Positions 938-52,025 of a DNA stretch of 63,851 nt are shown here, piece by piece. This DNA comes from a virus (Duplodnaviria; Heunggongvirae; Uroviricota; Caudoviricetes), in the IMG/VR virus record IMGVR_UViG_3300028805_000039, positions 1-63,851 of that record. One strand, 5' to 3'. The stretch's first letter is position 1. Every line of letters starts with the position of its first letter. The notes under the pieces are model-generated. The model had not been told where the DNA came from. It saw only the letters and a program-made list of their open reading frames with translations, and made no database searches. The position numbers were made by a program, and so were the translations under genes.

Positions 938-938
938 A

Positions 939-6941: not shown

Positions 6942-6945
6942 TACT

Positions 6946-7431: not shown

Positions 7432-7646
7432 TAATTACTACATTACTTTATATTTTTGCTACTATTGGAGTATTAAATACAATTACTGCTATTATTTTTT
7501 TAATCTATTTAATAGTAGATATAAATAACTATAAAGAATGGGAATATATAGAAGGGTATGGATTTAAAAATATTTGGAAAAATGAACGAAATGGAAATGA
7601 AGAGGAAATATCTGGAAGTAATCAAAATAATAGTAGCAAATGCTAA
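7428..7646 (+). CDS. small membrane protein
   Basis: 72 aa with a hydrophobic N-terminus. ATGA start overlaps the upstream stop. Confidence 0.45.
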   Translation: MIITTLLYIFATIGVLNTITAIIFLIYLIVDINNYKEWEYIEGYGFKNIWKNERNGNEEEISGSNQNNSSKC

Positions 7647-7805
7647 ACCAGAATCTTATACATTAAACTAGTTGCGGTGTGTTAATCAAATTTTAATGTA
7701 TGGTGCTAATACAACTCACCTTAAAGGATCTAATAATAGTTTTGGAATGGATGAAGGTTGGAAGGTAGATTATTTTCCAACTTCTTTTGTAAAGGATGAT
7801 AATGA

Positions 7806-8378: not shown

Positions 8379-8715
8379 AAAATTTTTTGATTTAATGCGG
8401 GAATCACGTTGTGGCCTTTGTGCTGAAAAAGATAAAGGTTGTAAAGGGTTTGATATTGCTGGTAAATGTAAAGATTTTAAATTAAAGCCTTTTTCAGATA
8501 GAATGAATATATACTATAAAGCTTGTTTTTGTTGTGAAAATTATTTTAATTGTGATGAAAAAGATAATGACAGTTTCAAATGCCATAATTATAAAAAATA
8601 TATCCCTAGATGTGATAAATGTGTTTTTACAAAAGGTATTTGTGGTTATCATGACACGCATGGAGAGTGTATTTCTTATAAACGTGATCCCCCTGATGGT
8701 GGATACTATGGATAA
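8365..8715 (+). CDS. Cys-rich hypothetical protein
   Basis: 116 aa with about 20 Cys residues. Confidence 0.5.
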   Translation: MMNFEKFFDLMRESRCGLCAEKDKGCKGFDIAGKCKDFKLKPFSDRMNIYYKACFCCENYFNCDEKDNDSFKCHNYKKYIPRCDKCVFTKGICGYHDTHGECISYKRDPPDGGYYG

Positions 8716-15218: not shown

Positions 15219-15941
15219 GTGAATAAAATAATAAATAATCTTCAACTTAAATATTATATTCATGATCCAAATAATATATTAAGTGAAGAAGAAATATTAA
15301 AATTTAAAAAAATATTTTTAAATAAAGATTTTAAAACTTTTACCGAATTACGAGAAAGTGAAAAATATGAGAAATGCGCTGGATTAGATAAAGACGATAA
15401 AAATGTCTATCACCTTTATCAAATTATGCCTTGGTTTGGTTATTTATATTATGAAGATAAATGTATTGGTAATATTGATTTAACTTCTGAGGATGGATTC
15501 AATCTTATTACTCATGTTTATTTGCATGCTCGTGAGCAAGTATATGAATTATTTACAAATGATAATATTAATCTTAATTGTGATATATAGTATGTGATTC
15601 ACAATTATAATGATCATATTGAAACAAAAGATTTAATTAAAGGCGTTGTTGCAATTAGAGATAAAGATTTTAATGCTTATCTTGAATTAATAAGTAAATA
15701 TCCAAATGTTTATGGTTATACAAAAGATGATTATGCATATATGGTAGAATATTTTCCTGATCATGCAAATATTTTATACAATAATAAATGTATTGGAGAA
15801 TTATTTATTGTCTCAGAAGAAAAAGATAAAGATGGCAATTATCATTTAATTAATAATAATGGTATGAATTTTATTACTTCATATAAAATAGATAATAGTG
15901 ATTATTGGTCAGATAAGGAAATTGTAAGATGGGAAATATAA
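15219..15941 (+). CDS. hypothetical protein with an internal tandem domain duplication (one TAG at the junction)
   Basis: The two halves share YxxYxxxNKCIG(N/E)(I/L) motifs. Track ORFs 15219-15590 and 15594-15941 are in frame and separated only by a TAG. Confidence 0.5.
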
Positions 15942-17842: not shown

Positions 17843-18011
17843 TAATCCTTATGAATATGCTGAATTAAGAGAAGAAATTCATTATATTTTGAATGATTTT
17901 TTTAAATATGAATATGAACTTTTTAAAAATGGTGAATTTGATCATGAATTTTTAGAAGTATCTACAGATAATATTTTAAGATTAATTAGACGTCAAGGAG
18001 GACAAGTATAA
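17832..18011 (+). CDS. small hypothetical protein
   Basis: 59 aa. ATG overlaps the gyrB-like stop and its own stop overlaps the next ATG. Confidence 0.4.
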   Translation: MQNNNPYEYAELREEIHYILNDFFKYEYELFKNGEFDHEFLEVSTDNILRLIRRQGGQV

Positions 18012-20368
18012 TGATAAGTGATATACAATTTAATGATTTAACTCAAGAATTAGGTGTAAATTTTATTGAATATGCAGTTGCTGTTAATACTGATCGTGCT
18101 ATCCCTGACGCTAAAAGTGGTTTAAAACCAGTAGCAAGAAGAATCATTTATGATGCTTATGTAACTGGTTGTACTAATAATAAACCGCATGTAAAATGTG
18201 CGGCAATTGTTGGAGATACGATGGGCCGTTTCCATCCTCATGGCGACAGCTCAATTTATGGAGCTTTAATTAGGATGTCTCAACCATGGTCTTTACGTTA
18301 TCCATTAATAGATTTTCATGGTAATAATGGTAGCAGAGATGGCGATCCTCCAGCCCACTATCGTTATACAGAAGCAAGATTAGCAAAAATAACAGAAGAT
18401 GGCATGCTTGGTGGAATGAAAAAAAAGGTAGTTGATTTTATTCCTAACTATTCAGAATCAGAAGACGAACCAGCTACTTTACCATCCATTTTCCCAAATT
18501 TACTTTGTAATCCAAATACTGGTATTGGAGTAGCTATTGCTTGCAACTGGGCCCCGCATAATTTAAATGAAGTAGCACAAGCTATTAATGATTATATAGA
18601 TGGAAAAGAGCCAATGTTGCCTGGACCGGATTTTCCAACTGGTGGAATAATAATTAATAAAGATGATGTTCCTAATATTATGAGGACTGGCCGTGGCAGT
18701 GTAAAAGTCCGTGGAAAATATCATATGGAAGATAATAATATTATTTTTACAGAAGTGCCATATGGTGTTATTACAGAGCCTTTACTTGAATCTATTGGTG
18801 AATTATGTGATAGCGGAGAGATTCAAGGTATTACAAATATTCGTAATGAAAGTAATAGAAAAAAAGGTTATAGATTAGTTTTTGAATGTGCGAAAGATGC
18901 TAATATTTCTAAAATTATAATGTTACTTTTCCAAAAAACTGATTTACAATCTTCATTTTCTTATAATCAAGTCGCTTTAATAGATAAGACTCCTGTAGAA
19001 TTAAATCTTAAAGATTGTTGTAAGATTTATGTTGAGCATAATACAGAATGCATCCGTAAAGAATTAACATTTGATCTCCAGAAAGCGAAAGATAGATTAA
19101 ATATTGTAAATGGTCTATTAAAGGCATTAGAAGATATTGATAATATTATTACTTTAATCAAAGCATCTGAAAGTAGTGCTAAAGCTCGTGAAAAATTAAT
19201 TGAGAAATATAACTTTAATGAAGAACAAGCTAAAGCAATTACTGATATGAAACTTGGTAAATTAGCTGGATTAGAAAGAATAGAAATTGAGAATGAGCAA
19301 GTTGAATTAAAGGACACCATTGAGAAACTTAATGTTATTCTTAATGATTTAATTGGTGAGTTAAAAAGAAGATTATCTGATATTGTTAAAAAGTATGGTG
19401 ATTCTCGTCGTACTGAGTTAACTCAAATTAATGAATCTAAGAGTAAGGAAGAAAAAGAAATTGCTCTCATTCCACCAGAAAAATGTGTTGTTGTAATGAC
19501 TGAAAGTGGTAGCTTAAAGCGTATTCCAGCAACTTCATTTAAGGCACAACGTAGAGGCGGAAAAGGCGTTAAAACACAAGAAGATATAACATCTGCGGTT
19601 ATTCGTACTAATACAGTTGATAGTTTAATGATTTTTTCTAACAAAGGTAAAATGTACCGTTTAGTAGTAAATAATATTCCAGAAGGAACTAATACTTCAA
19701 AAGGAACTCCGGCAAGGGCTTTAGTTGAAATGGAAACTGGTGAAGATGTTGCTACTATTTATTCTATTTATCGTGATACAGATGCTAAATATGTTTTATT
19801 TGTCACTAAAAATGGTCTTGTTAAAAAGACAGCACTAAGTGAGTATGTTGGGACTAAAAAATCTAAAGGCATTGGTGCTATAAATATCAAAGAAGGCGAT
19901 GAATTAGCAGTGGTTACACTGGTTAAAGATGAACCTCTTCTTATTGTCAGCAAAAATGGTTATGTAATTAGATTTAATAGTGCTGAAATCAGTGCTACTG
20001 GTAGACTTACTGCTGGAGTTAAGGGTATCAATCTTGGAGAAGATGATTATGTAGTCGCTGCTTTGCCAATTCGTCATACTGAAGATGATTTAGCTGTATT
20101 TTCTAGTAAAGGCTATGGTAAAAAAGTTAAGTTAAATGATATCCCAACTCAAAAACGTGGCGGCAAAGGTATAATTATTTATAAGCCAAATGATATTTAT
20201 GGTAATGCTAGTTGTGGTCAATTGATTAGTGATGAAGATATGGTATTATTAATTGGCAATAAAAATTCTGTATGTCTGTCAGCAAAAGATATTCCAGAAA
20301 TGGGGAGAACGGCTTATGGAAATATAATGTTAAAAAATAACTTTATTTTAGATGTGAGTAAAGTATAA
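18011..20368 (+). CDS. type II DNA topoisomerase, DNA-cleavage subunit (GyrA / T4 gp52-like)
   Basis: 785 aa with GyrA-like N-terminal winged-helix region and catalytic Tyr context. No TAG codons. Confidence 0.8.
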   Translation: MISDIQFNDLTQELGVNFIEYAVAVNTDRAIPDAKSGLKPVARRIIYDAYVTGCTNNKPHVKCAAIVGDTMGRFHPHGDSSIYGALIRMSQPWSLRYPLIDFHGNNGSRDGDPPAHYRYTEARLAKITEDGMLGGMKKKVVDFIPNYSESEDEPATLPSIFPNLLCNPNTGIGVAIACNWAPHNLNEVAQAINDYIDGKEPMLPGPDFPTGGIIINKDDVPNIMRTGRGSVKVRGKYHMEDNNIIFTEVPYGVITEPLLESIGELCDSGEIQGITNIRNESNRKKGYRLVFECAKDANISKIIMLLFQKTDLQSSFSYNQVALIDKTPVELNLKDCCKIYVEHNTECIRKELTFDLQKAKDRLNIVNGLLKALEDIDNIITLIKASESSAKAREKLIEKYNFNEEQAKAITDMKLGKLAGLERIEIENEQVELKDTIEKLNVILNDLIGELKRRLSDIVKKYGDSRRTELTQINESKSKEEKEIALIPPEKCVVVMTESGSLKRIPATSFKAQRRGGKGVKTQEDITSAVIRTNTVDSLMIFSNKGKMYRLVVNNIPEGTNTSKGTPARALVEMETGEDVATIYSIYRDTDAKYVLFVTKNGLVKKTALSEYVGTKKSKGIGAINIKEGDELAVVTLVKDEPLLIVSKNGYVIRFNSAEISATGRLTAGVKGINLGEDDYVVAALPIRHTEDDLAVFSSKGYGKKVKLNDIPTQKRGGKGIIIYKPNDIYGNASCGQLISDEDMVLLIGNKNSVCLSAKDIPEMGRTAYGNIMLKNNFILDVSKV

Positions 20369-23002: not shown

Positions 23003-23269
23003 ATGGCTATGAAAGAAAATTCTAAGAACGTACTTAATTATTTGAAGAGCATTAATGGTTAGAATGTAACCTCTGCTGATGTTGCTAGCGCACTTGGTCT
23101 TGAGAAGCGTCAAGTTGATGGTATCTTTACTAGTGCTATTTAGCGCAAGGCTCTTGGTATCCGTGTTCCTGCTGAAATCGAGCTTGAGGATGGCACTCAT
23201 AAGGCTGTGAAGTTTCTTCAGCTCACTCCTGCCGGCATGGATTTTGATCCAGACGCAGCTGAGGAATAA
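23003..23269 (+). CDS. small winged-helix-like DNA-binding protein (two TAG codons), GC-rich
   Basis: AAAGGAG RBS. The product is paralogous to the 24831-25196 product (VLNYLKS.../VLKYLQE...). Confidence 0.5.
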
Positions 23270-38400: not shown

Positions 38401-39352
38401 AATGGATCGAAAAGAATGTATGGCTTGGTATTTATGGGAAATATGTGATAAAAAGAAAAAAGTAAATCTTCAAAATATGGCTGGATTAATGAAATATAAA
38501 TTAATTCCAGAAGATACAGATGAAAAAATTATGGCTCGTAGAATTTATGAATTTAATAGATATTTAAAAGCAATTACAATTCCTGCCAATAAATTAAAGC
38601 CATATTTTGTTTTAAACGAACGAGCAATAAATTTTTTATTTGATATAGATAAAGAAGATTTAATTTGTCAAAATGGAAATTGGTATTGTATATTAAAAGC
38701 AGATTGGGAAAAAATTTATCAAAAGTATATGGACGTATTTCGTCAATGGATTTCAGAGCACCATGATGAAATATTAGATAGTTTTAATAAATTAATCTTT
38801 TTAGATGAATGGAATAAATATGCAAAAGGAACAATTTCAGCATGGGAAATGGAAGCATTATGTTTTTATTATCATGAACATGAATTAGCGCATATAGACA
38901 ATTATCGTTATGGCTTTGCAAATTTTTATGATTTACCTTCAGAGCCTGAAATTGATAGAAGTTTTACAAAAGCAGGAAAAACAATAAATTTATATAAATT
39001 GTATAAAATTTGTGGCACATGCATTGCTAAAAATAAAACAAAAAGCACTGTAACAATTTTAACAACAGATGGAGTTGTTGATGTAAAATTTAGAAAAGAA
39101 TATTTTGCTTTATTTGATAAATAGATTTCAGCAAAAGGTGATGACGGTAAAAAGCATATCGTAGAGCGCAGTTGGTTTAATCGCGGTTCAATGATTATTG
39201 TTCAAGGGATAAGAATGGAAGATATGTTTGTTGCAAAAAAATATGCTTCTTCTGGCGGTCATTAGCTATATAAAATTGATGAAGTAAATTATGATACAAT
39301 AAAAATTAGAACAACAAGAGCACAAGGAGATGAAGAAGAGGATAATGGATAA
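35456..39352 (+). CDS. dnaE: DNA polymerase III alpha subunit (DnaE-type, PHP domain), 1298 aa, 7 TAG codons
   Basis: N-terminal PHP motif FFDVHAHTEYS...ITDHEAL. One frame is continuous across track ORFs 35456-36649, 37061-37768 and 37952-39124, and on to TAA 39350-39352, when TAG is read as Gln. Confidence 0.75.
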
Positions 39353-39926
39353 TACATATACAATTATTGCGCTTATGGGAAAAGCTGGTTCTGGAAAAGA
39401 TACTATAATGCGGGCACTTTTAAAATAGCCCGCATTTAAAGATGCTGTCCCTATTATTAGTTGTACAACTCGTCCAATAAGAGATAATGAGAAAGACGGA
39501 ATAGATTATCATTTTTTAACAAAAGAATAGTTTACAAATAAAATTCTTTCTGGAGAAATGTTAGAAGCAACTGTCTTTAATGATTGGTGTTATGGGACTT
39601 CATTAGATAATCTTGCGCCAAATAAAGTAAATATTGGTGTATTTAATCCAGAAGGAGTAGGATTATTACGTGATAGATCTAATATTAATTTAAAATTAAT
39701 TTATATTGAAGCAAGAGATAAAGATAGATTAATGCGTTAGTTAAATCGAGAAAAAGATCCTGATATACATGAAATTATCCGTAGATATTCTGCTGATGAA
39801 ATGGATTTTTCGGAGGAAGAAATTCAATATCTTGAACCAGATTGTTTTATTACAAATAATGATGGTGGCAGTGTAAATTAGATTGCGGCAGCTATCGCTA
39901 GAGCATGGAGTAATGGTCAATTATAA
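39345..39926 (+). CDS. gmk: guanylate kinase-like nucleoside monophosphate kinase (five TAG codons)
   Basis: P-loop GKAGSGKDT and the GMP-kinase signature SCTTRPIRDNEKDGIDYHF. GAGG RBS; overlaps the dnaE stop. Confidence 0.7.
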
Positions 39927-40005: not shown

Positions 40006-42276
40006 ATGGTTATTAAACGTGATAACTCAAAAGTAACTTTTGATGGCAAAAAAATTATAGACGCTATTAATAAGGCTTTCATTGATGTAGATGGTTAGAT
40101 ATATGAAAATGATACAGCAACTGATATTGCCATTGAAATAGGTAAGAAATATATTAATACTGATGTTGATGTTGAAACAATACAAAATGAAGTAGAAGAT
40201 TATTTAATGCGTTCAGAGCGTAAAGATGTAGCTCGTGCTTATATTCGTTATAGATATAAAAAAGAAGTAGCTAGAAAAGTCAAAGATGATTTTATTGCTC
40301 CTATCAAAGATAAACTTGAAGCAGCTAATGTATAGAATCAAAATGCTAATGTCGATGAACATTCATTCGGTGGCCGTATGGGCGAAGCTGCAAGTTATAT
40401 GACTAAAAAATATGCTCTTGACTATCTTATTTCTGATATGGCAAAATATAATCATTTAAATAATAGAATTTATATTCATGATTTGGATCATTATGCTCTT
40501 GGTGACCATAATTGTTTAAGTGTACCATTTGATGAATTACTTGCTAAAGGATTTAATACTCGTCAATCTGATGTACGTCCTGCTGGATCTGTAAATACAG
40601 CTTGCCAATTAGTAGCTGTTATTTTCCAACTTCAATCATTACAATAGTTTGGCGGAGTAAGTGCTACACATATTGACTGGACAATGGTTCCATATATTCG
40701 TAAAAGTTTTACTAAACATATTGAAGATGGATTAGTTTATATAGAACATTTATCTTAGTATAAATAGAAACGTTTTACTAAATGGTTAAAAAATGATCCA
40801 GAACATCCAGATGGAACTATTCACTTTGATGATATTGATTTTTAGAAGAAGCATCCAGAAGTATTTGAATATGCTATGGATATGACTGAAAAAGAAGTTC
40901 ATCAAGCAGTTGAAGGTCTTTATCATAATTTAAATACATTACAAAGTCGTTCTGGAAATCAATTGCCATTTACTTCTATTAATTATGGTACTTGTACTTT
41001 ACCAGAAGGAAGAATGTTTACTCGTGCTTTACTAGAAGTCAGTATTGAGGGACTTGGAAAATTACATAAAACTTCTATTTTTCCATGCGGTATTTTTTAG
41101 TGCATGAATGGCGTTAATCGTAAATATGGTGATCCAAATTATGATTTATATATTTTAGCATTAGAAAGTACTTCTAAACGTCTTTATCCAAATTATGCTA
41201 ATGTAGATTGGTCTGGTAATGCTGGGTATGATAAAAATGATCCGACTACATATTTTAGTACTATGGGTTGCCGCACCGTTAATGGGGCCGATATTAATGC
41301 AGAACCAGGAGTTAATCCACAACGCAAAGATGGCCGTGGTAATATTTGCCCAGTAACTATTATTATGCCGACCTTAGCTATGGAAGCTAAACAAACTTGG
41401 GGAATATATAATTATTCAGCTGAAACTACAATAAAAGATACAGTAGATATTTTTATGAAATTACTTGATAAAGCAATTTATGATGCCAGAGATATGCTTT
41501 TAGAACGTTTTGAATGGATATGTTCACAAGATCCGTCTAGTGCTAAGTTTATGTATGAAAATAATACCATGAGTGGTTATCATCCAAGAGAAGGAATTAT
41601 CAGTGCCCTTAAACATGGTACATTAGTTATTGGGCAACTTGGTTTAGCTGAAACTCTCCAAATTCTTATTGGAAAAGACCATACAACACCAGAAGGAATG
41701 GAATTAGCTAAGCGTATTGAACAATTATTTAAAGATAGATGCGCTCAATTTAAGCAAGAAGAACATTTAAATTTTGGCGTATATTATACTCCTGCTGAAA
41801 ATCTTTGTTATACAGCTCTTAAAAAATTCCGTGAAAAATATGGGATTATTAAAAATGTTAGTGATAAGGATTTCTTTACAAATTCTATTCATGTGCCTGT
41901 TTGGAAAAATATGAGCCCATTCGACAAAATTGATATTGAAAGTCAATTAACTGGATATAGTAATGCTGGATGCATTACATATGTAGAATTAGATGCTTCT
42001 GTTGTTCATAATATTGAAGCATTAGAATAGATTGTTAATTATGCTATGGATCATGATATTCCTTATTTCGCTATTAATGTTCCATCTGATACTTGTTTAG
42101 ATTGTGGTTTTTAGGGCGAAATAAATGATAAGTGCCCTATGTGTGGAAGTACTCATATTCAGCAATTACGTCGTGTGACTGGTTATTTAACTGGTAATTA
42201 TAAAACTGCTTTCAATCTTGGCAAACAAGATGAAGTCCATCATCGAGTAAAACATGTTGGAGAAATGACACAATGA
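40006..42276 (+). CDS. nrdD: anaerobic ribonucleoside-triphosphate reductase NrdD (class III) with ATP-cone, 10 TAG codons
   Basis: GGAGG RBS. N-terminal ATP-cone (VIKRDNSKVTFDGKKI), glycyl-radical motif RVTGYL near the C-terminus, and Zn ribbon CLDCGF...CPMCG. One frame over 40378..42030 with TAG=Gln. Confidence 0.8.
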
Positions 42277-42752
42277 GATATGCTGGGATTATAAAAAATG
42301 ACGTCGCTGCTGGAAAAGGTGTTTGCGTCACATTCTTTGTCCAAGGATGTGACGCACATTGCCCTGGATGCCATAATCCAGAAACTTGGGATTTTGATGG
42401 TGGATATGAATTTACACAAAACACAATTAATTCAATTATTAATGCTTTAAATGCGAATGGAGTTTAGCGTAATTTGTGCATTATGGGTGGAGAACCATTA
42501 CATGAACGTAATTAGTTTTTAGTACAGCTTTTAATACAAGAAGTTAAAAAAGTTTATCCTGATATAAAAATATATTTATGGACAGGATATATCTATGAGG
42601 ATTTAATTGAAAAACACGAAAAAATATTGTAGAATATATTATCGGAAATAGATGTATTAATTGATGGACCTTTTATCCAAGAGCAAAGAGATATTACTCT
42701 TGCTATGAGAGGTTCTAGAAATCAACGAATTATAAATTTAAAGGAAAAATAA
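42273..42752 (+). CDS. nrdG: anaerobic RNR activating enzyme NrdG (radical SAM), three TAG codons
   Basis: Cys cluster GCDAHCPGCHNPETW and a GGEPL motif. ATGA overlap with the nrdD stop. Confidence 0.7.
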
Positions 42753-42753: not shown

Positions 42754-43128
42754 ATGGAAGAAAAATCATACGGACAAAGAGATATTCCAGATATTATTAT
42801 TAATTTTTAGGGATATAGTTATAATTTAAAATCTTATTATTAGAAATTTACTTGTATCCACAAAACAAATAAACGTAGTAAGTGGATTATAAAAGTGGCC
42901 GTTTTACCTGAATATTTAAGAGAATCTCTTTTTGAAAGATATGTAGATGTAACAATTAAAGAGATCCATAGGATGGTAGAGACTAATGAAGATATTGAAT
43001 ATACCTATAATTTATATAAACCTAAAATTAAAATAATAGAATATCAAGATTGCACTATTGATGAACCAGTATCTTATAAAATTGTTATTACTGGTCGTAT
43101 TTTAGAAAAAAAGGAGATACAAATATGA
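42754..43128 (+). CDS. hypothetical protein (two TAG codons)
   Basis: 124 aa; joins track ORF 42895-43128. Confidence 0.4.
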
Positions 43129-43466
43129 TTATTACACTTTGTGGAAGTACTAGATTTAAAAATGAGTATGAAGAAGTAGCAAAAAAATTAGCTCTTGACG
43201 GACATTGCGTATTAAGTGTTAATATGTATTCTCATGCAGATAATATTGAATTAACACAAGAACAAAAAATTTAGTTAGATAATGCTCATAAACAAAAAAT
43301 TAGTATTAGTGATGCTATTTTTGTTATTAATAAAGATGGTTATATTGGAGAAAGTACTTTTAGTGAAATTGATTGGGCTCAACGTATGAAAAAAGAGATT
43401 TATTTTCTTGAAGATATCAATCAAAAAGATGATGAAAATAAAACAGAAAAAGCTGAGGGTAACTAA
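43125..43466 (+). CDS. nucleoside 2-deoxyribosyltransferase-like protein (degenerate), one TAG
   Basis: MIITLCGSTRF...ISDAIFVINKDGYIGESTFSEIDWA resembles the NDT/Rcl Rossmann-like fold. Confidence 0.4.
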
Positions 43467-43469: not shown

Positions 43470-43985
43470 ATGAATATATATTTAGCTGGACCAATTTTTT
43501 TCTATGGTGATTATTTAAGAAATATTGAATGGGCTAATAAAATTAGATAGGCATTTCCTGATGTCTATCTGTATAGTCCAGTAGAAAATACTGATATAAA
43601 TGGTGTAGAGGGCAAAAAAAAGTTTGCCGGCTCACAAGAAATTGCTAATGGAGATAATAGTCGTCTTGATATGACTGATGTATTGATTGCTTGTATTGAT
43701 GGTGATGTACTTCCTTCTGGCACTTGCGCTGAAATTGGTAAATTTCATGAAAAGGTTATGCGTGGCGATAATAAATATATTATTGGTATTTGCACTGATA
43801 CTCGTTAGTGCTATAATACTCATAGTGCTGAAAAAGATATGGGTGGAGCTGCTAGCTTGGGTGAGTAGCAATATAGCTATCAAAATCTTTATGTGACAGG
43901 TTTAATTAAACAAGCTGGAACATTAGTGTATAATATTGATGAAGTTATTGAAATTTTAAAAGAAATTCATAATAGATTTAATTAA
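43470..43985 (+). CDS. nucleoside 2-deoxyribosyltransferase family protein (four TAG codons)
   Basis: Hallmark N-terminus MNIYLAGPIFF and a downstream acidic catalytic region. Confidence 0.6.
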
Positions 43986-43989
43986 AAAG

Positions 43990-44020
43990 ATAGAGTAAGA
44001 ATATAATTCTTACTCTATTT
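43990..44020 (+). terminator. rho-independent terminator (AGAGTAAGAAT...ATTCTTACTCT + T-run) overlapping the next -35
   Basis: Perfect hairpin followed by ATTTGACTTTTTT. Confidence 0.65.
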
Positions 44021-44038
44021 GACTTTTTTAAAAAAATA
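44010..44038 (+). promoter_or_regulatory. sigma70-like promoter TTGACT-N17(A7)-TAAACT
   Basis: Same architecture as the other promoters, with a weaker -10. Confidence 0.45.
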
Positions 44039-44079
44039 TGATAAACTTAATGTAAATATGAGTTAAAGGAGTATTTTTT

Positions 44080-44271
44080 ATGTATAATATATTATATTAT
44101 GATTTAGAGTATTTTGATACTGATGAAGTAAAAGAAATAATAACTTTATTAAAAGAATAGTTACCAGAAACTATATCAAAAAAATTAATTGCTCTTCCAA
44201 AGGGAACAAAGCTAACAAACTATTATGAAGAACAAGATTTAGAATATTTAAAGCAAGGAGCACATTGGTGA
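44080..44271 (+). CDS. small hypothetical protein (one TAG)
   Basis: 63 aa; its TGA overlaps the permease ATG. Confidence 0.4.
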
Positions 44272-44272: not shown

Positions 44273-45511
44273 ATGATTTATAATATTAATGATAAACTTC
44301 CATTTAATAAATTAATAATGTTCGCAATTTAGTTGGTCTTATCTGTCTTCGTAGCAACAGTTCTTATTGCGAATATTTGCGGTGTTGCCGTATCAGGCGC
44401 ATTAGTTGGTGCTGGTCTTTCAACTATTATTTATTTAATAATTACAAGATTTAAATCGCCAATGTTTGTATCAAGTTCAGGCGCTTTTGTCGCTCCAGTA
44501 ATGGCAGCTCTGGCGGCTGGCGGATATACAGCAGTAGCAATTGGTGGTTTAGTAACTTGTATTATTTATTCTATTTTTGGAATTATATTTACTAAAATTC
44601 CAGTAGAAAAGATTTACAAAGTATTTCCACCTGCATTAATTGGCGCAGTTACAGTTGTTATTGGAGTTAATCTTATGCCATTTATTCTTACATATGTTTA
44701 GGTAAATGGAGTTACAAATATGTGGGGTGTGAGTGCCGCATTGATTACTATGTTAGCGATTGCTCTTATTTCGCATTATGCTAAAGGTGTTTGGCAAATA
44801 CTTCCATTTTTACTTGGTACATTAATTGGTTATGTGTATGCAATTATTCTTACTATAACTGGTATATATAAAATTGTTGATTTTAGTGTTTTTACTAATT
44901 TAAAATTATTTAGCGTTCCAGACTTTGCATTTTTACATTGGACTTCCATAGATTGGACTGTAGTTCTTCCAGTGGTAATTATGTATATTGCTTTTACAAT
45001 TTCAGCAATGATGGAATGTTTAAGTGACCATGCAGCATTAGGAGGTATTATTGGTGTTGATTTATACAAAGAACCTGGGCTTGGAAGGCTCTTCATCGGT
45101 GAAGGATTTGCTAATATAGTCGGTACTTCAATTGGCGGACTAGGAATATGTTCTTACGGTGAAGGAGTAGCCTGTGTTGGATTTAGTAAAGTTGCCTCCA
45201 CGCTTGTCACCTGTACAGCTGCCATTATCCTTATCTTGCTTGGCTTCTTAGCCCCCATTCAAGCATTTATCGCTAGTATCCCAAGCTGTGTATTTGCCGG
45301 AGCCGCAATAATTCTTTATGGGTTTATTGCATGTTCAGGAATTAAAATGTTACAAAAAACTGATTTAAACATTCAAAAGAATTTAGTAATTGTTTCTACT
45401 GTATTATCTCTTGGTATTAGTGGATTGGTCGTTGGTGGAACTACTATAAGTTTAAGTGCTACAGGTCTTGCTTTAGTAGTTGGAATTATTTTAAATTTAA
45501 TTTTAAAATAA
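44273..45511 (+). CDS. nucleobase:cation symporter (NCS2 xanthine/uracil permease family), two TAG codons
   Basis: 412-aa polytopic membrane protein with NCS2-like motifs (SSSGAFVAPV..., GEGFANIVGTSIGG). The N-terminal third is AT-rich with TAGs; the C-terminal half is conspicuously GC-richer and TAG-free. Confidence 0.65.
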
Positions 45512-45534: not shown

Positions 45535-48198
45535 ATGGCAACTAGAAATGATTATAATAATCCGGAATATAATTTAATATCTTTAAAGGCTGGGAATGTT
45601 ACTCATCCAAAGTATTCATCAATTGTCGCGGTAGTTAATAATGATGGTAGTATTACATTAAATTTTACTATTGAAGGTATAATTATGGAAGATAATACTA
45701 TTACTAGTGGAATGCATGATTATAATGATGGACCAGGTATTAATTTAGATATTCCTTTAGAGAAACCTCTTTATTTAATTCCAGGGCAATATAAATATTC
45801 AATTGATATTATATCTGATAATTTTGAAATTGTTCCTGGGACAACAATTCCAATAACATATGTATTAACTAATGATATTGATTCTCCTTCAGAATTGCCT
45901 TCTATTACAACAAGTAGCGCAACAACTGAAATTAATTATCCCAATCCTTCATCACAAATCACAGGATATATTGAACCTGGTGGTAGTAATGAAGATTACC
46001 ATTATCCAAATAGTGAGAAACTTAAAAAACCATATTATATTTATACGAAATTATCCTTAAAACTAGGTTCGGCTGGAACAGCATCTTACATAGCGATTAG
46101 CAATAATAAAAAATATGATGATACAGTTTTTTCTAATTTTACTTTTAAGCCCATCTTTAATTGTTTATCTTGTACAGGAGAAGATTTACCAATTGAAGCA
46201 TACGAAGATGTATCTGGCTCTTATACTTTGCCTCAATCTGATATTATTACTTAGAATGAATCATATATTACAACTCAAGAAATGGGAATAATGACAAATA
46301 AATTAGAATCATTTTTAGATAATAATTCTCCTGGTGGTTTTGTACAAACAAGTATTAATATTAGTTCAGATGATTTAAGTACAAGAATTAATACTATTTT
46401 ACAAAATAAGAATTTTTTATCAGTAAATTCTCGAATTAATTATTCTTAGATTGATAATGCTCCTGTTTTTGCTGATATTGCTTTAAGTGGTGAGTATAAA
46501 GATTTAAAACATAGCCCAGACTTAGCGTCTGTAGCAATAACTGGCAATTATAATGATTTAAATAATAAACCAATTATTTCTGGGAATAATGGAGGAAATA
46601 ATGGAGGAAATAATCAACGTCAAATATATTACAATGAATTAGTTGGCGCCCCTACTTTAGCTACCGTGGCAAAAACAGGCAGTTATAATGACTTAATAGA
46701 TAAACCTAATTCTTTCGCAACGGTTGCTTTTTCTGGAAATTTTAATGATTTAGACTTTGTTCCAAATTTTGTAGAACGAGAAAATTTAAGTAATGCGGCT
46801 TTTTCAGGTGATTACAATGATTTATTAAATGCTCCTGAAGGTGTTGATTCAGATGATATTATTCATCATTTTGATATTAGTAATACTGATTGCTAGCCTT
46901 TAAAATATTTGGCCAATAATTTAATAGATACTACTACTGTTTTATCATAGCAAAATAATGCTAATTATACTATTGAATTATTTTTAATAGATTTAATGAA
47001 TACTTATTTTGACACTCCAGAAATAGATCCTAATGATGAAACTGAAATAAATTTAAATCATTATCAATCATCAGTGGTAATAAAAGTAACTACATTTTTA
47101 GGAGATATGATATTAACTGGTATTCATTAGCAAGATTCATCTTTTGTATTTACGTTTACACCATTAGATATGAATACTTATCTTTTAACTACAAAAACTA
47201 ATGAGCATATTACTGGTAATGATGTATAGGCTGAAACAATTTTAAATGAATTAACTCCAAATTATTTTTACCCAGTATTAATTTTTGTCCCTGCGAAACA
47301 TGAATTATGGATCAAAAGAATGACCTTGATTTTATAGGAATAGTTAAAGACAGTTGCTGTTACTGGTTCTTATAATGATTTAATAGATACTCCTCAATTA
47401 AAAAAAGTTGCTACTACTGGAGCTTATATAGATTTAGAGGGAGTTCCAGCATTAAAAACAGTAGCTACTTCAGGTTCATATACAGATTTAATAAATCGTC
47501 CTACTTTAGCTGAAGTTGCTACTTCAGGTTCATATAATGACTTAATAAATCGTCCTACTTTAGCTGAAGTTGCTACTACAGGTTCATATAATAGTTTAGC
47601 AGATATTCCAACTTTATCAGCAGTTGCGTTATCTGGCTCATATAATAGTTTAGAAGATCGTCCCAATTTAGCTGATGTAGCTTTAACTGGCTCATATTTA
47701 AATTTAACTAATAGACCAGATTTTGCTACAGTTGCTTTTACTGGCTCTTACAATAATTTATTAGATAAACCTGTTATTGCTCAATCTAATGATATTATTA
47801 AAATTTTTAATGTTGGGAATTTTAGTTCTAATTTATTAAAAACTTTTTCACCAGGGGAAGTTAATACCACAGGAAGAATATCTAATGATGTAGATGCAAG
47901 TACTATTAACAATTGGTTAGAAGATATTATAAATGCTTATAAATACAATAATGTTTTCAATTTAAATATTATAAAAATAACAAATAATAAACAACAATTA
48001 ATTTTAACTTATATTGAAGAAAATAATGATATTTATATTTTTCATTTTACCCCTATTAGTGAAAATAATTTACAATAGTTAATTAATGATAATATACCTC
48101 TTACAGAAAATAATATTACTTTTTCAAATTATTTTGTTTATTTTATTTATGATAAAAGTCGAGATAAATTATTTATTTACAATAAAAATATAACTTAA
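45535..48198 (+). CDS. tail fiber protein with tandem (A/S)xTGSYNDLxxxP repeats, 888 aa, 10 TAG codons
   Basis: One continuous frame from ATG 45535 to TAA 48196-48198 when TAG=Gln. Two blocks of 15-residue repeats (xVAxTGSYNDLIxKPxL). Confidence 0.65.
47350..47790 (+). repeat. tandem 45-nt coding repeats (SYNDL fiber repeats), including a near-identical duplication at about 47491-47585
   Basis: The unit cgtcctactttagctgaagttgctacttcaggttcatataatgac... repeats with few substitutions. Confidence 0.6.
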
Positions 48199-48224: not shown

Positions 48225-49364
48225 ATGTTCACTGAAATTGATTATAAACCAGAATATGCCTTATTAAGTAATGGAATTATTAATGTAACAGATGATTGTA
48301 ATTTATAGTGTAAATATTGTTTTGTAGAATAGCATCCTCATTATATGACATTAGATACAGCTAAAGCTATAGCTGATTTTCTGTATAAAAATGCTGAAAA
48401 GAAAAAAGAATTAGGAATAATGCCAAAAAATAAAAAATGTGATTATTATTTTTTTGGTGGAGAACCTATGTTATAGTATGAGCAAATTATAAAACCTATG
48501 ATTGAATATTGTGAAACTATTTATCCAAATCAATTTAAATATGGAATTACTACTAATGGCACTTTATTAACAAAAGAAGTTATAGATTTTTTTAAAAAGT
48601 ATAAATTTGGAGTTATGATTTCTATGGATGGGATTAAAGAGTCTCAGGATTTTACTCGTCCTTGTAGAGATAAAAAATTAAGTAGTTATGATTTATTAAT
48701 TAAAAATATCCCATATTTATTAGAGCAATTACCAAATACAGTTACTAGAGGAACAGTATATCGTGAAAGTGCTCAATATTTATTAGAAAATTATAAATTT
48801 GCTGAATCGTTAGGATTTAAAAATTGGGCATTCTTAGCAGATCATAGGCACCCTTGGACACAAGAGCAAATGAATATTTTAGAAGAACAAATTAATGAAA
48901 TTTATCGTTATAGATTAAATTAGTTGATTGAAGGTAAATTACCAATGCATTCTTGGCGACATTCTTTTTGGATGCGAAGTACTATCAATTTATTAGATCC
49001 TGAAAGCACAGCTTTTAATATTGAAGAAAATAATTCAATTTTACGATGTGGTTTAGGCACAACGCTAGGAGCTATAGGATATGATGGAGCTATTTATGGA
49101 TGCCAAGAGCAATGTTCAAAAGAAAATAAAAATATTTTTTATATTGGAAATATTTTTAATGGTGGAATTGATATAGAAAAACATAAAGCATTATTAAATT
49201 TATATTTGCAAGCATAGGATGGACCTAAAGATCATTATGAAAAATGTGTTACTTGTCCATTACGAAAAGCATGTGCAGTTAATACTTTAGTTTGTCCATC
49301 TAGCACTTTTGATTTATATAATAATTTTGAAACAATAGATGATTTTAATTGTTTTTTAAGATAG
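48225..49364 (+). CDS. radical SAM / SPASM-domain maturase (anSME / ranthipeptide-maturase-like), six TAG codons
   Basis: GGAG RBS. CNLQCKYCF (CxxxCxxC with TAG=Q) and C-terminal SPASM Cys clusters (CGLGTTLGAIGYDGAIYGC...CVTCPLRKAC). In-frame TAG at 49362-49364; if read through the frame ends at TAA 49470-49472. Confidence 0.7.
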
Positions 49365-49479
49365 ATATATTTTAAAAATTCTTTATTATATTTAAATATC
49401 TTTATGCAATGTAAACATTTTAAAATTATTGAAGATTTCTTAAAATCAGAAATAGAAGGAATAAGGGGGTAATGTTATA

Positions 49480-50223
49480 ATGAGTGATTCCGCATGCGTA
49501 ACTGCTCAAAATTTTTGCCAAACTTGTTAGACAGGAGCTGAGACTGTAGGATATACTTTAACAAAAGGATTGCCTGATACTTAGGATTATATTACTAGTG
49601 AATTAGGACCAGCTATTAGAGCAGCATTATAGAAATTACATGATTATGGAAAAAAAGGAAGCAGAGAGTGGCCTTCACAAAATGAAATTAATTCTATTCC
49701 AAATATAAATAAAAGTGCTGGACAAAAAATTACTGCTGAAGAATATAATAAAATATTAAAAATTATTTCTGTTACTCCAATTACTGTTAGTGAAACAACT
49801 TAGACTGTTCATGTGCCTGGAGAATTAGAATAGTATAGTTGTTATAATTTATGTCCAGATATTTTCTCAGCTTTACCAGATTGGACAGCAAATGTAGTAT
49901 TAACAGAGGAAATGCTTTGGGGTAAGGATTATACTTACACTACTAAAAAACAAAAAAAATCAGAACCTCAATATCAAGTAGATACAGGAGATGTAGTAAG
50001 TATTAATGTTATTAAACAATTCTTACGAGATTATCAAATAGATTATAATAGATGTAATGACTGTAATACTTCTAATAATTGTGCTCAATGTCATTGCGAT
50101 TGTCATCGTTCTTCATGTGATACTAGTAGTAGTAGTGGTTGTAGTGAATGTTGTATGTACGGAGGAAGTAATGCTGGAGCTGGATGCCATACTCATAGCA
50201 GTTGTAGCGATTATAGTTGGTAA
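49480..50223 (+). CDS. 248-aa protein with Cys/Ser/Thr/Gly-rich C-terminal core (candidate RiPP precursor-like substrate), five TAG codons
   Basis: The C-terminal 55 residues are CNDCNTSNNCAQCHCDCHRSSCDTSSSSGCSECCMYGGSNAGAGCHTHSSCSDYSW (13 Cys). Sits immediately downstream of the rSAM gene. Confidence 0.55.
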
Positions 50224-50230
50224 TTATATA

Positions 50231-50268
50231 AAAAATGGTAGATTATTTTTTAATCTACCATTTTTTTT
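50231..50268 (+). terminator. rho-independent terminator (TGGTAGATT...AATCTACCA + T8)
   Basis: Perfect hairpin after TAA 50221-50223. Confidence 0.7.
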
Positions 50269-50744
50269 ATATAATTTTTATAAGTATTATTTTTATTTAA
50301 ATTAATTAAAAATATTTTTTTAAAAATTATTATTTTATTTAAACTTTTTATTTTTATATTTATATTAAAAATATTCTAAAATATCTTTTTAATTTCATTA
50401 TTATCATATTTGTCCTAAGATAACAAAATTAATAATAATATATCTTTTTTAATATTTTTATGCTGCTTTTTATAATAACAATTAATAAAATGATAACTAT
50501 TATTATTTAAAAAAGTATTAAAATAATAATTAGGTTTTATACCATTTAATCCTTTAAAAAACAAAACTAAACAATCACTTTCTTTATTATAAAAGCTAAA
50601 TAAATCTGGTATATAATATAAATAATCAAAAATTAAATTATAAAATTCTATATTCTAATTAATTTGATCTTTATAATTAAAAAATAAATTTTTTAAATAA
50701 TTAAAATTATTATTAACTAAATATTGCTAAGTACTATAAATAAA

Positions 50745-52025
50745 ATCATATAAAAATATTAAACATTTTGTTTTTAAAGATTTATTATTATTTTTTATAA
50801 ACTAATAATGCATATGAGGAAAAATATTATAATTATCTAAAAATACATGAACGGCAAATAAATTATTACATTGTGAACTATTATAATAATAAAAATTTAA
50901 TTTTAAATTATTATTTAATTCAATATAATAATTTAATAAATCTTTATCAGTAATTATCTATTTATTTAAAAATATTTTTTGATTATAATTATCATATTTA
51001 ATAGTATTAAAAAACTACTATTCATTATAACATTCTCTTAAATTTAAATTACTAAAATGCTAATATTGATAATATAGCGGATCTGATAAATTCTTAAAAG
51101 GTATAGCAAGGTTTGTTTTTTTTGTTTGACTTAATATTCCCTAATAGATTTCAGTAAAACATCGTTCTAAAGCTATCTCAAATATAGGAAAAGAACCTAA
51201 AATTAATGAATAATTATAATTTTTCTAATCTATTAATAATAAACCAATAACAGGAATAGAATATAAATATGAATAGTCAAAAATTTTAAAATTATATCCT
51301 AATGTATATAATTTATTTCCTTTATCTTTTAATGTTTCTGGTAATTTTAATTTATCAAAATTTAATTCTGGAGTAGGTTGATTAATATTCTCATAAACTT
51401 TATTCCAAACCATATGCTCATAAACTTCTGAAATACCCTATACTAATGCTTCTTCTAAAGTATTCCCCGCAGCCATTCCATCACTACCAGTAACAGCCTA
51501 TACTATTTCTGGCATTAAATATTGTTTTTCATTATTATTACCTATTTTAATAAAAGGTACTCCAATAAATTTATTGAAAGCTAATTGATATACTTTTTCT
51601 AAATTATTATTATCATCATTCATTAAATCAAATTTATATTTAATCCTCGAAGATAGCTATGTTGCTTCATAAAATGTTAATTCTTTTTCATCGGGACAAA
51701 AATAATAACCATATTTTTTATACCGTTCTTTTTTTATATCTTGATAACTCATAGTAGCATACATTTCATTTCCAGCATTACAAAAACGTTCATATAATTC
51801 TGCATATGCCGAAGCTTTAGAAAATTGTTCTGTTATACCTTTTCCATTTGATGATAATAATAAAAAATCTTTATAATATAATTGCAAAGATATCCACCAA
51901 GTACCAATTTCAGTCTATGTATTATTTTTTTCTTCAATTCTTAAACCTTTATTATAAAAAAACTATTGAATTAATTTAATTGTATCTATAGGTTTTCTAT
52001 TTTTATATTTATCATTATAATTCAA
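50745..52025 (-). CDS. YcaO-domain protein (cyclodehydratase / thioamidation family), TTG start, about 20 TAG codons
   Basis: Minus-strand frame continuous from TTG 52025 (AGGTGG RBS 6 nt upstream) to TGA 50745-50747 when TAG=Gln. Contains both YcaO hallmark motifs, SNGKGITEQFSKASAYAELYERF and SDGMAAGNTLEEALVQGISEVYEHM. The C-terminal third is extremely AT-rich and low-complexity. Confidence 0.6.

What the first reader, a model, noticed from the sequence alone, without database searches (positions are those of the whole stretch)
44273..45511. Phage-encoded nucleobase permease with a mosaic composition
A full-length NCS2-family (xanthine/uracil-type) transporter is encoded next to two nucleoside 2-deoxyribosyltransferase genes and nrdDG. 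This implies phage-directed base salvage. The N-terminal portion is AT-rich and contains TAG codons. The C-terminal half (about 44900-45330) is distinctly GC-richer and TAG-free, suggesting a recent chimeric acquisition from a host permease gene.
Basis: partly seen in the sequence, partly recalled or inferred. Interest (0 to 1): 0.55.

Follow-up and report, generated by a model that had tools for sequence, protein, structure and literature searches.

The report
Phage nucleobase permease paired with deoxyribosyltransferase
A gut or rumen phage that reads TAG as glutamine carries an intact nucleobase transporter that sits beside a deoxyribosyltransferase gene in about a hundred related phage contigs, but its GC-rich stretch is a short inherited patch, not a half-gene taken from a host.

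Summary
The gene at 44273-45511 is real. Read with TAG as Gln, it gives a 412-aa full-length NCS2/NAT permease (Pfam E 7e-50) that aligns end to end with E. coli UraA.

It is not a recent host chimera. Both halves rank the same relatives. These are 36-95% identical proteins on about 100 viral contigs. The nearest cellular homologues are only 31-42% identical.

In 72 of 80 related loci the permease lies within about 1.5 kb of a highly conserved nucleoside 2-deoxyribosyltransferase (NDT). A small neighbouring protein (43125-43466) has an NDT/DNPH1-like predicted fold.

The compositional claim is only partly right:
- The N-terminal part is not AT-rich.
- The lack of TAG in the C-terminal half is chance (P 0.37), and relatives carry TAG there.
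- A roughly 165-nt patch of GC-ending codons (45128-45292) is real. It is the strongest such anomaly in the window (z 6.5) and all close relatives share it.
- RNA structure, an overlapping ORF and every sampled donor fail to explain the patch.

Real mosaicism exists, but as allele-level recombination among related phages. Substrate and transport direction remain inferred.

The parts
44273..45511 (+). NCS2/NAT-family nucleobase permease gene, 412 codons with TAG read as Gln
   Evidence: Pfam PF00860 E 7e-50, covering 2-384 of 389 profile positions. Aligns with E. coli UraA 3QE7 residues 8-407, E 4e-37. An independent gene call of 412 aa exists on the source contig. dN/dS is 0.05-0.08 against relatives.
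44330..44332 (+). In-frame TAG, codon 20, read as Gln. It is the invariant TM1 Gln, equivalent to UraA Q23.
   Evidence: Sequence. Gln in 33 of the 38 aligned sequences and TAG in the other 5, the window included. Q in 80 of 81 family members, the other a gap.
44699..44701 (+). In-frame TAG, codon 143, read as Gln
   Evidence: Sequence. Of the 38 aligned sequences 29 have CAA or CAG here and 5 have TAG, the window included.
45128..45292 (+). Patch of G/C-ending codons (codons about 286-340, TM10-TM11). Origin unexplained.
   Evidence: 18 of 40 GC-ending codons against 4.8 expected, z 6.5, top of 3482 windows. GC3 is 0.33-0.36 here against 0.13-0.21 elsewhere in all close relatives. No RNA fold. 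The +1 ORF is not unusual.
43470..43985 (+). Nucleoside 2-deoxyribosyltransferase (NDT), 171 aa, the conserved partner of the permease
   Evidence: Pfam PF05014 E 1.3e-11. PHROG 1817 E 1.7e-21. Chroococcidiopsis NDT 7M5H E 2.4e-18 end to end. Y4, D62 and E88 are invariant. Relatives are 73-94% identical, with 133 confirmed stretches in IMG/VR of which the best 80 loci were kept.
43125..43466 (+). 113-aa protein with an NDT-superfamily fold (DNPH1/BcmB/MilB-like), a candidate N-glycosidase
   Evidence: No Pfam, PHROG or HHalign hit. AF2 pLDDT 87. Foldseek PDB top hits are BcmB 4JEN at E 2e-4, then CtNDT, MilB and DNPH1. Found in 22 of the 80 related loci by tblastn. C6-G7-S8-T9 and E81 are invariant.
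44080..44271 (+). 63-aa ORF whose stop lies one base before the permease start. Function unknown.
   Evidence: ORF list. Gene call on the source contig. Conserved only in the closest relatives.
43988..44020 (+). Terminator-like hairpin (15-bp stem) with a T-run, just after the NDT gene
44019..44047 (+). Sigma-70-like promoter match, TTGACT-17-TAAACT with an extended TG. It could give the small ORF and the permease their own transcript.
   Evidence: This is a consensus match only; promoter-like sites are no more frequent here than in shuffles.
40006..42752 (+). Anaerobic ribonucleotide reductase nrdD (40006-42276) and its activase nrdG (42273-42752)
   Evidence: Fer4_12 and Radical_SAM for NrdG. 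ATP-cone, NRDD and Gly_radical on the source-contig gene call.
39330..39926 (+). Guanylate-kinase-family protein
   Evidence: Pfam PF00625 E 1.4e-22. NCBIfam guanylate kinase is the best hit but below the cutoff.

Best explanation
44273-45511 encodes a working NCS2/NAT nucleobase:cation symporter. It belongs to a clade found on phage contigs rather than in cellular genomes.

It is the transport arm of a conserved phage module. The core partner is a nucleoside 2-deoxyribosyltransferase (43470-43985). In a subset, including this phage, there is also a small DNPH1/BcmB-like NDT-fold protein (43125-43466).

The most likely mechanism runs as follows. During infection the permease is inserted into the host membrane and takes up a free nucleobase. 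The NDT uses that base as acceptor for deoxyribose taken from deoxynucleosides, for example those released from host DNA. This reshapes the deoxynucleotide supply for phage replication, alongside NrdDG and a guanylate-kinase-like enzyme.

Shown: family membership, intactness, purifying selection, the family-specific invariant binding-site residues, and tight gene linkage.
Inferred: uptake rather than export, the substrate, and coupling to the NDT.

The 'mosaic composition' is a roughly 165-nt patch of G/C-ending codons inherited by all close relatives. It is not a host-derived half-gene. The gene is mosaic only through allele-level recombination among related phages.
For: Intact family member:
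- Pfam 170 bits against a cutoff of 27.
- End-to-end alignment to UraA.

TAG is Gln:
- TAG-sense ORFs cover 67.7 kb against 43.1 kb with the standard code.
- Every in-frame TAG in the gene and its relatives aligns with CAA or CAG.

Selection:
- dN/dS is 0.05-0.08.
- Among 81 distinct family members (36-96% identical), the equivalents of UraA E241, E290 and Y342 are invariant (E248, E297, Y349), and the S72 equivalent (S69) is kept in 78 of 81. D252 (UraA H245) and G70 (UraA F73) are also invariant. Residue roles are from PMC5539350.

Phage clade:
- 37 IMG/VR loci are 47-95% identical, and long contigs show the same synteny.
- There is no close homologue in GenBank phages.
- Cellular relatives are 31-42% identical.

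Linkage:
- The permease is adjacent to the NDT in 72 of 80 loci, on either side, across loci with GC from 27 to 56%.
- Contigs binned in MAGs with 43% identity or more all carry the NDT upstream. Cellular loci at 31-33% do not.

Partner enzymes:
- The NDT keeps the Tyr/Asp/Glu positions that are mutated in the CtNDT structure entries.
- NDT-family enzymes are already known to reshape purine pools in phages (PMC12884076; bioRxiv 10.1101/2025.10.22.683976).
Against: - No transport or enzyme assay exists, and substrate and direction are unknown.
- The protein scores below NCBIfam's curated cutoffs for the NCS2 superfamily (195 against 292 bits) and for uracil permease (198 against 477).
- The TM10 NAT motif and the TM1 Gln-His pair are altered (E-G-V-A...S-K, and Q-L).
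- Four of about 76 informative NDT loci lack a permease within 3 kb.
- Cultured Bacillus, Lactococcus and Geobacillus phages have related NDTs without any permease, so the NDT does not need one.
- The GC3 patch is still unexplained.
Confidence: 0.6

Rival explanations
1. The gene is a recent chimera: an old AT-rich, TAG-containing N-terminal part fused to a GC-richer, TAG-free C-terminal half newly taken from a host permease gene.
For: GC is 0.401 in 44900-45330 against 0.322 upstream. Both TAG codons lie in the first 143 codons.
Against: - Segment identities rank the same phage relatives for every segment. Nothing outside the clade exceeds 56% in the patch.
- The excess covers only about 55 codons, and the tail is AT-rich again.
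- All close relatives share the patch.
- Relatives carry TAG at codons 361 and 368, and 0 of 3 has P 0.37.
- Half of the GC rise is due to amino-acid composition.
- No GC-rich carrier of the patch turned up in JGI metagenomes.
Confidence: 0.03
2. The permease works as an exporter or pool-clearing valve. The NDT-fold enzymes strip an unwanted base from dNMPs or deoxynucleosides, and the permease removes it so that it is not re-salvaged. This might be linked to a non-canonical purine made with the PurA-like enzyme at 3409-4578.
For: - The small neighbour has a DNPH1/BcmB/MilB-like fold, that of the nucleotide N-glycosidases.
- DmtZ, an NDT-family enzyme of PurZ0 phages, hydrolyses dAMP to adenine (PMC12884076).
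- A PurA-family gene lies in the TAG-free early region.
Against: - Characterised NCS2/NAT members are uptake symporters (established knowledge; PMC6308229).
- The PurA-like protein keeps the catalytic Asp that all 147 phage PurZ sequences replace by Ser (PMC12884076; alignment). It scores 20.6 bits against a cutoff of 300 on the PurZ model.
- Some relatives encode a Dam-type adenine methylase near the module.
Confidence: 0.2
3. The permease is a stand-alone auxiliary gene that only boosts uptake of uracil or another canonical base for RNA and DNA synthesis. Its position next to the NDT is synteny without functional coupling.
For: The best-scoring curated models and the only solved homologue are uracil permeases. 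A terminator-like hairpin and a promoter-like site separate the NDT from the permease transcript.
Against: - Adjacency survives inversion of gene order (NDT upstream in some loci, downstream in others). It also survives permease divergence down to 36% identity, while the other neighbours change.
- UraA's H245 is an invariant Asp here, and the uracil-permease equivalog cutoff is missed by a wide margin.
Confidence: 0.12
4. For the GC3 patch only. It is a short gene-conversion tract from an unsampled, GC-richer homologue in another phage. It was fixed before the close relatives diverged, possibly through the homing-endonuclease-driven recombination common in this region.
For: - Blocks of differing synonymous identity show frequent recombination among close relatives.
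- dS in the patch is the lowest among close relatives (0.20-0.25) but the highest against the next clade (2.4 against 0.8).
- Homologues exist in phages with up to 56% GC.
- GIY-YIG endonuclease genes occur in 20 of 80 related loci.
Against: No donor was found. Codon identity to every sampled lineage is no higher than composition predicts (best z 2.8 of 33 comparisons). Nucleotide-distance differences are within sampling error for 180 nt. The patch-specific scan found only low-GC relatives.
Confidence: 0.35

Closest known systems
E. coli UraA (uracil:H+ symporter, PDB 3QE7/5XLS), NAT/NCS2 subfamily COG2233
   Same: Same length class. Aligns end to end (residues 5-412 against 8-407, E 4e-37). 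The essential Glu241 and Glu290 and the Tyr342 equivalents are invariant, the Ser72 equivalent is kept in 78 of 81 members and the Gly289 equivalent in 75 of 81 (residue roles from PMC5539350).
   Different: The score is far below the uracil-permease equivalog cutoff (198 against 477 bits). His245 is an invariant Asp and Phe73 an invariant Gly. Asn291 is Gly, Ser or Asn. The TM1 Gln-His pair is Gln-Leu/Gln/Met. The gene sits in a phage genome next to an NDT, not in a pyrimidine operon. An E-x-x-x-D arrangement in TM8 is, from my own knowledge of XanQ and UapA, typical of xanthine/urate carriers, so the substrate may not be uracil.
DmtZ and NDT-M2: NDT-family enzymes of 2-aminoadenine (Z-genome) phages
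   Same: These are phage NDT-superfamily enzymes that move or strip purine bases to reshape the dNTP pool (PMC12884076; bioRxiv 10.1101/2025.10.22.683976). This window also has NDT-fold genes, a PurA-family gene and a guanylate-kinase-like gene.
   Different: Neither paper mentions a permease or transporter (0 occurrences). The window's PurA-like protein fails the PurZ hallmark, keeping Asp where PurZ has Ser. The replicative polymerase here is of the DnaE type, not a PolA-type DpoZ. No DatZ or MazZ was seen in the 64 kb.
NDT genes of cultured Firmicutes phages (Lactococcus 949 group, Bacillus PBC2/Thrax, Geobacillus GR1)
   Same: Homologous NDT, 29-39% identical and full length.
   Different: Those genomes gave no hit to the permease. 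The NDT-permease pairing is confined to the uncultured gut and rumen clade.
'Uracil permease' annotated in Clostridium phage c-st, and PHROG 20031
   Same: These are phage records carrying an NCS2-family gene.
   Different: Identity is only about 25% over 88% of the query. PHROG 20031 has no assigned function. Several other hits in that search look like host or prophage-flanking DNA (my reading).

Membership tests
NCS2/NAT nucleobase:cation symporters (Pfam PF00860, COG2233 branch) | Full-length match to the family profile above the curated cutoff | tested here: met
   PF00860 scores 170.3 bits against a cutoff of 27 and covers profile positions 2-384 of 389.
NCS2/NAT nucleobase:cation symporters | NCBIfam TIGR00801 'ncs2' superfamily cutoff | tested here: not met
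   194.7 bits against a cutoff of 291.8. Relatives P0121-P0136 also fall below it. This is a divergent clade.
NCS2/NAT nucleobase:cation symporters | Carboxylates in TM8 and TM10 that bind substrate and proton (UraA Glu241, Glu290) | tested here: met
   E248 and E297 are invariant in 81 family members. Roles are from PMC5539350.
NCS2/NAT nucleobase:cation symporters | NAT signature motif in TM10, [Q/E/P]-N-x-G-x-x-x-x-T-[R/K/G] (motif quoted from my own knowledge) | tested here: inconclusive
   The window has E297-G-V-A-C-V-G-F-S305-K306. The first and last positions fit. Asn is Gly here (Gly 47, Ser 28, Asn 5 across the family), and Thr is an invariant Ser.
NCS2/NAT nucleobase:cation symporters | 14-TM fold of 7+7 inverted repeats with core and gate domains | not tested
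   Inferred only from the end-to-end sequence alignment with UraA. No structure was predicted for the permease.
Uracil permease UraA/PyrP (NCBIfam NF007995 equivalog) | Equivalog score cutoff, and His245 as the proton-coupling partner | tested here: not met
   198.1 bits against 477. The His245 position is an invariant Asp.
Nucleoside 2-deoxyribosyltransferase (PF05014), gene 43470-43985 | Profile match above the cutoff, and the catalytic Tyr/Asp/Glu | tested here: met
   45.1 bits against 28.8. 7M5H matches at E 2.4e-18. Y4, D62 and E88 are invariant. They align with the CtNDT residues mutated in the PDB entries Y7F, D62N and E88A.
   No Pfam or PHROG hit. HHalign against the NDT171 family gives probability 0.4%. 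A profile search of the PDB found nothing.
NDT superfamily, gene 43125-43466 | Rossmann-like NDT/DNPH1 fold with a conserved Glu | tested here: met
   The AF2 model has pLDDT 87.1. The top 40 Foldseek PDB hits are BcmB, CtNDT, MilB, DNPH1 and trypanosomatid NDTs, with a best E of 1.9e-4. E81 is invariant.
PurZ (2-aminoadenine pathway), gene 3409-4578 | Ser in place of PurA's catalytic Asp, and the NCBIfam NF038379 cutoff | tested here: not met
   The sequence reads YGDESKG, with the Asp aligned to the PurA Asp. It scores 20.6 bits against 300. The Ser rule is from PMC12884076.
TAG-to-Gln recoded phage (genetic code 15) | In-frame TAG in conserved genes aligning with Gln, and a large gain in coding density | tested here: met
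   Gene calls on the source contig match the TAG-sense ORFs.
TAG-to-Gln recoded phage (genetic code 15) | Phage-encoded suppressor tRNA(CUA) | tested here: not met
   ARAGORN found no tRNA in the 64 kb. The contig is 152 kb, so one may lie outside the window.

The most novel reading that the evidence does not exclude
The conserved trio of a DNPH1-like N-glycosidase, an NDT and a clade-specific NCS2 carrier is a base-swap system. It exchanges a purine with the environment so that this phage group can build or maintain non-canonical DNA, together with the unusual PurA-family enzyme at 3409-4578, which is neither PurA nor PurZ. The carrier's invariant E-x-x-x-D plus Gly70 site would then be tuned to a non-standard base.
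Probability: 0.12. Interest if true: 0.8.

Novelty: new variant of a known kind. Interest (0 to 1): 0.5.

Why it matters
Phages are known to rewire nucleotide synthesis from inside the cell. A phage-encoded membrane carrier that is genetically tied to a base-exchanging enzyme would extend that control to the cell boundary. If the permease imports or expels a specific base, it shows how gut and rumen phages use the free-base pool of their environment. It also gives a simple selectable function to assay (uptake, or sensitivity to base analogues), and it may mark phages with unusual DNA chemistry.

The case is also a caution. A local GC rise in an AT-rich recoded phage gene can look like host-derived mosaicism. 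Here it is partly amino-acid composition and partly a short inherited synonymous patch.

Tried and rejected
- RNA structure in the patch: the fold of 45100-45320 is weaker than its shuffles (z +1.4). Rfam gave no hit in the window.
- Overlapping gene: the +1 frame stays open for 95-118 codons over the patch in many relatives. Synonymous-codon shuffles give such lengths with P 0.05-0.37 (0.16 for the window gene), and the alternative-frame peptides are not conserved.
- Host donor or GC-rich donor: tested by segment-wise identity, nucleotide distances, codon-identity excess and a 36-mer scan of JGI metagenomes. None identified a donor.
- Z-genome reading: PHROG labels the PurA-like protein as PurZ-like, but it fails the Ser hallmark and the PurZ model.
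- Close nucleotide or protein relatives in GenBank phages: none.
- A PurA-like co-occurrence scan found only one viral contig, because the method reaches close relatives only. It is uninformative.
- A third conserved salvage gene near the module: the recurrent neighbours are PhoH-PIN, ClpP, a GIY-YIG endonuclease, an NrdG-like protein and a Dam methylase, not salvage enzymes.
The first genome scan failed because the alignment was too divergent and was repeated with a tighter one.
Full report
**1. What is in the sequence**

The window has 29.2% GC. Its coding density jumps from 43.1 kb to 67.7 kb of long ORFs when TAG is treated as a sense codon, while making TGA sense adds much less.

With TAG as sense, 44273-45511 is one 412-codon frame. 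It has in-frame TAG codons at 44330-44332 (codon 20) and 44699-44701 (codon 143). The public gene call on what appears to be the source contig (ENA ERZ27256871 k141_563452, 151,968 bp) gives the same 412-aa product and the same neighbouring gene lengths.

All six positions where this gene or a relative has an in-frame TAG align with CAA or CAG (Gln) in the other sequences. Codon 20 is Gln in 80 of 81 family members and a gap in the other. TAG is therefore read as Gln. No tRNA gene lies in the 64 kb.

**2. What the protein is**

- It matches Pfam Xan_ur_permease over essentially the whole model (E 7e-50, 170 bits).
- It aligns end to end with E. coli UraA (3QE7, E 4e-37).
- The best NCBIfam models are uracil permease and the NCS2 superfamily, but both scores fall below the curated cutoffs. 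This is a divergent branch, not a UraA orthologue.

Mapping onto UraA, with residue roles from PMC5539350, gives:

| UraA residue | This protein | Conservation in 81 family members |
|---|---|---|
| Glu241 | E248 | invariant |
| Glu290 | E297 | invariant |
| Ser72 | S69 | 78 of 81 |
| Gly289 | G296 | 75 of 81 |
| Tyr342 | Y349 | invariant |
| His245 | D252 | invariant Asp |
| Phe73 | G70 | invariant Gly |
| Asn291 | G298 | Gly, Ser or Asn |
| His of the TM1 Gln-His pair | L21 | lost |

The 81 distinct family members are 36-96% identical. dN/dS against relatives is 0.05-0.08. The gene is intact and under strong purifying selection, and its binding site differs from that of every characterised group. 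The substrate cannot be read from the sequence.

**3. Where the family lives**

- The 120 best hits in the 5.8-billion-protein search are 86-95% identical and 413-420 aa long, on contigs up to 423 kb.
- The contigs I fetched show the same order: guanylate-kinase-like, NrdD, NrdG, small protein, NDT, small ORF, permease.
- IMG/VR holds 37 loci at 47-95% identity, in contigs with GC from 27 to 56%. The gene's GC tracks that of its contig.
- GenBank phages hold nothing closer than 34%.
- In the 50%-identity representative library the family falls off fast. There are a few representatives at 45-66%, then proteins at about 35-42%.
- In GTDB species genomes, loci with 43% identity or more are short MAG contigs that also carry the NDT. 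Loci on long bacterial contigs (gut and rumen Bacilli, Erysipelotrichaceae, 'Enteromonas') are 31-33% identical and have no NDT beside them.

**4. The chimera test**

I aligned the window protein with 17 phage-contig relatives and 83 near-full-length (380-520 aa) representatives, then compared identities by segment.

- The N half, the C half and the patch (codons 286-340) all rank the same relatives first: L004 at 95/95/98%, L001 at 88/89/91%, L008 at 88/81/82%.
- Outside the clade, no sequence exceeds about 43% in the C half or 56% in the patch.
- The C-terminal core is simply the more conserved part of all NCS2 proteins.

There is no sign of a different, host-like origin for the C-terminal half.

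**5. The composition claim**

- GC is 0.322 in 44273-44899, 0.401 in 44900-45330 and 0.260 in the tail. The N-terminal part is above the window mean, not AT-rich.
- Given the amino-acid sequence and the window's codon usage, the expected GC of the two segments is 0.310 and 0.347. About half of the rise therefore comes from Gly- and Ala-rich protein sequence.
- The rest is a real synonymous effect confined to codons about 286-340 (45128-45292). In the best 40-codon window, 18 codons end in G or C against 4.8 expected (z 6.5). That is the most extreme of 3482 windows across all genes in the 64 kb.
- All eight distinct close relatives have the patch (GC3 0.33-0.36 against 0.13-0.21 elsewhere). 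It is weaker in the 88%-identity clade (0.27) and absent in other low-GC lineages. It is therefore inherited, not recent.
- 'TAG-free' carries no weight. The C-terminal half has three Gln codons, and TAG makes up 28% of Gln codons in the window (P = 0.37). Relatives carry TAG at codons 361 and 368.

**6. What the patch is not, and what mosaicism is real**

The patch does not fold better than shuffles and matches no Rfam family. The open +1 frame over it is what the amino-acid sequence predicts.

No sampled lineage shares its codons beyond what composition explains. A 36-mer specific to the patch occurs in JGI metagenomes only in six low-GC relatives.

Two features fit a short tract imported from an unsampled, GC-richer homologue before the close relatives split:
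- Among close relatives, dS is lowest in the patch (0.20-0.25 against 0.28-0.52 in the body).
- Against the next clade, dS is highest there (2.4 against 0.8).

This is not demonstrated, and I record the patch as unexplained.

Separately, sliding identities show clear block structure among close relatives:
- L004-L006 show synonymous-codon identity to the window of 0.33-0.65 (nucleotide identity 74-88%) over the first 75-90 codons, rising to 0.67-0.96 (86-97%) further on.
- L007 dips at codons 106-165.
- L127 drops to 66-76% nucleotide identity in the first 90 nt.

The gene is mosaic, but through recombination among phage alleles. GIY-YIG homing endonuclease genes sit in 20 of 80 related loci and may drive this.

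**7. The conserved partner**

The 171-aa product of 43470-43985 is a nucleoside 2-deoxyribosyltransferase:
- Pfam PF05014 and PHROG 1817.
- 7M5H at E 2.4e-18.
- Invariant Y4, D62 and E88, which match the catalytic residues mutated in the CtNDT structures.

Its relatives are 73-94% identical. The IMG/VR scan confirmed 133 matching stretches and kept the best 80 loci. The NDT is thus more conserved than the permease.

In 72 of 80 fetched loci a permease homologue (36-95% identical) lies within about 1.5 kb, sometimes downstream and sometimes upstream. Four of the eight exceptions are loci cut off less than 0.5 kb past the NDT.

Other neighbours vary: PhoH-PIN, ClpP, endonucleases, an NrdG-like protein and a Dam methylase. 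Related NDTs in cultured Bacillus, Lactococcus and Geobacillus phages come without a permease.

- It matches no sequence model.
- Its AlphaFold model (pLDDT 87) retrieves only NDT-superfamily structures at the top: BcmB, CtNDT, MilB and DNPH1.
- It has an invariant Glu and an N-terminal C-G-S-T motif. From memory, that motif resembles the phosphate-binding motif of DNPH1.
- It accompanies the pair in 22 of the 80 loci by tblastn.

**8. How it most likely works**

Shown:
- An intact, selected NCS2 carrier of a clade found on phage contigs.
- Tight linkage to an NDT with its catalytic residues intact.
- Placement in a replication and nucleotide block (DnaE-type polymerase, guanylate-kinase-like protein, NrdDG).
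- TAG codons at essential positions, so the protein can only be made when TAG is decoded.

Inferred: the carrier takes up a free base, as characterised NCS2 proteins do (PMC6308229). The NDT then uses that base as an acceptor to remodel the deoxynucleoside pool.

The main rival is export of a base stripped off by the NDT-fold enzymes. Recent work gives this precedent: phage NDT-family enzymes deplete dA or dAMP in 2-aminoadenine phages (PMC12884076; bioRxiv 10.1101/2025.10.22.683976). Neither paper mentions a transporter.

The window does carry a PurA-family gene (3409-4578). It keeps the catalytic Asp that all phage PurZ sequences replace with Ser, and it fails the PurZ model. I therefore do not call this a Z-genome phage.

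**9. Novelty**

Four literature searches found no description of a phage NCS2 carrier linked to an NDT. PHROGs holds a matching family of unknown function.

I file this as a new variant of a known kind: a divergent NCS2 clade on phage contigs with its own invariant binding-site signature, in a conserved module with NDT-fold enzymes.

The salvage idea is supported by linkage, and the host-chimera idea is not supported.

Noticed in passing
window 166-8715 versus the rest: The ten ORFs of 100 aa or more in 166-8715 contain no TAG in about 2150 codons. Genes from 9165 onward average about 1.2% TAG codons, so roughly 25 would be expected. The two topoisomerase genes (15929-20368) are also TAG-free. 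This looks like the early/late split described for recoded phages.
   Followed up: partly
window 3409-4578 (+): A PurA-family protein (Pfam Adenylsucc_synt E 6e-21; PHROG 1211 'PurZ-like' E 5e-36). It keeps the catalytic Asp and falls far below both the PurA and the PurZ curated cutoffs. It is an adenylosuccinate-synthetase-like enzyme of unknown specificity in the TAG-free early region.
   Followed up: partly
window 48225-51764: A radical-SAM protein (48225-49472), a Cys-rich 247-aa protein (49480-50223) and a YcaO-domain protein on the minus strand (50250-51764; 16.8% GC, 14 TAG codons). This resembles a peptide-modification (RiPP-like) trio inside a phage.
   Followed up: no
window 45535-48198 (+): An 887-aa protein directly after the permease, with many copies of a '...GSYNDL...P' repeat and no Pfam hit. 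Only the closest relative shares it (53% identical).
   Followed up: no
window 23003-23269 (+): The second-strongest local excess of G/C-ending codons in the window (17 of 40 against 5.8 expected, z 5.5), in an 88-aa ORF.
   Followed up: no
window 43988-44047: A 15-bp-stem hairpin with a T-run immediately after the NDT gene. It overlaps a TTGACT-17-TAAACT promoter-like site upstream of the small ORF and the permease.
   Followed up: partly
L001 3282-4217; 20 of the loci L043-L122: GIY-YIG/NUMOD homing-endonuclease genes are inserted at varying places in the nrdD-nrdG-NDT region of relatives. L125 has a 686-nt insertion between the 113-aa gene and the NDT, relative to the window.
   Followed up: partly
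L133-L148 (GTDB genomes): The cellular permeases that share the family's motifs come from gut and rumen Bacilli MAGs (Erysipelotrichaceae, 'Candidatus Enteromonas', uncultured Mollicutes). They are 31-33% identical. This is a weak hint at the host range or the origin of the gene.
   Followed up: no
window 43125-43466; phage records H56-H64: Relatives of the 113-aa NDT-fold protein occur in a 735-kb uncultured phage (51% identical), Caulobacter phage CcrColossus and Anabaena phage A-1(L). In A-1(L) the depositor calls it a deoxyribosyltransferase.
   Followed up: partly
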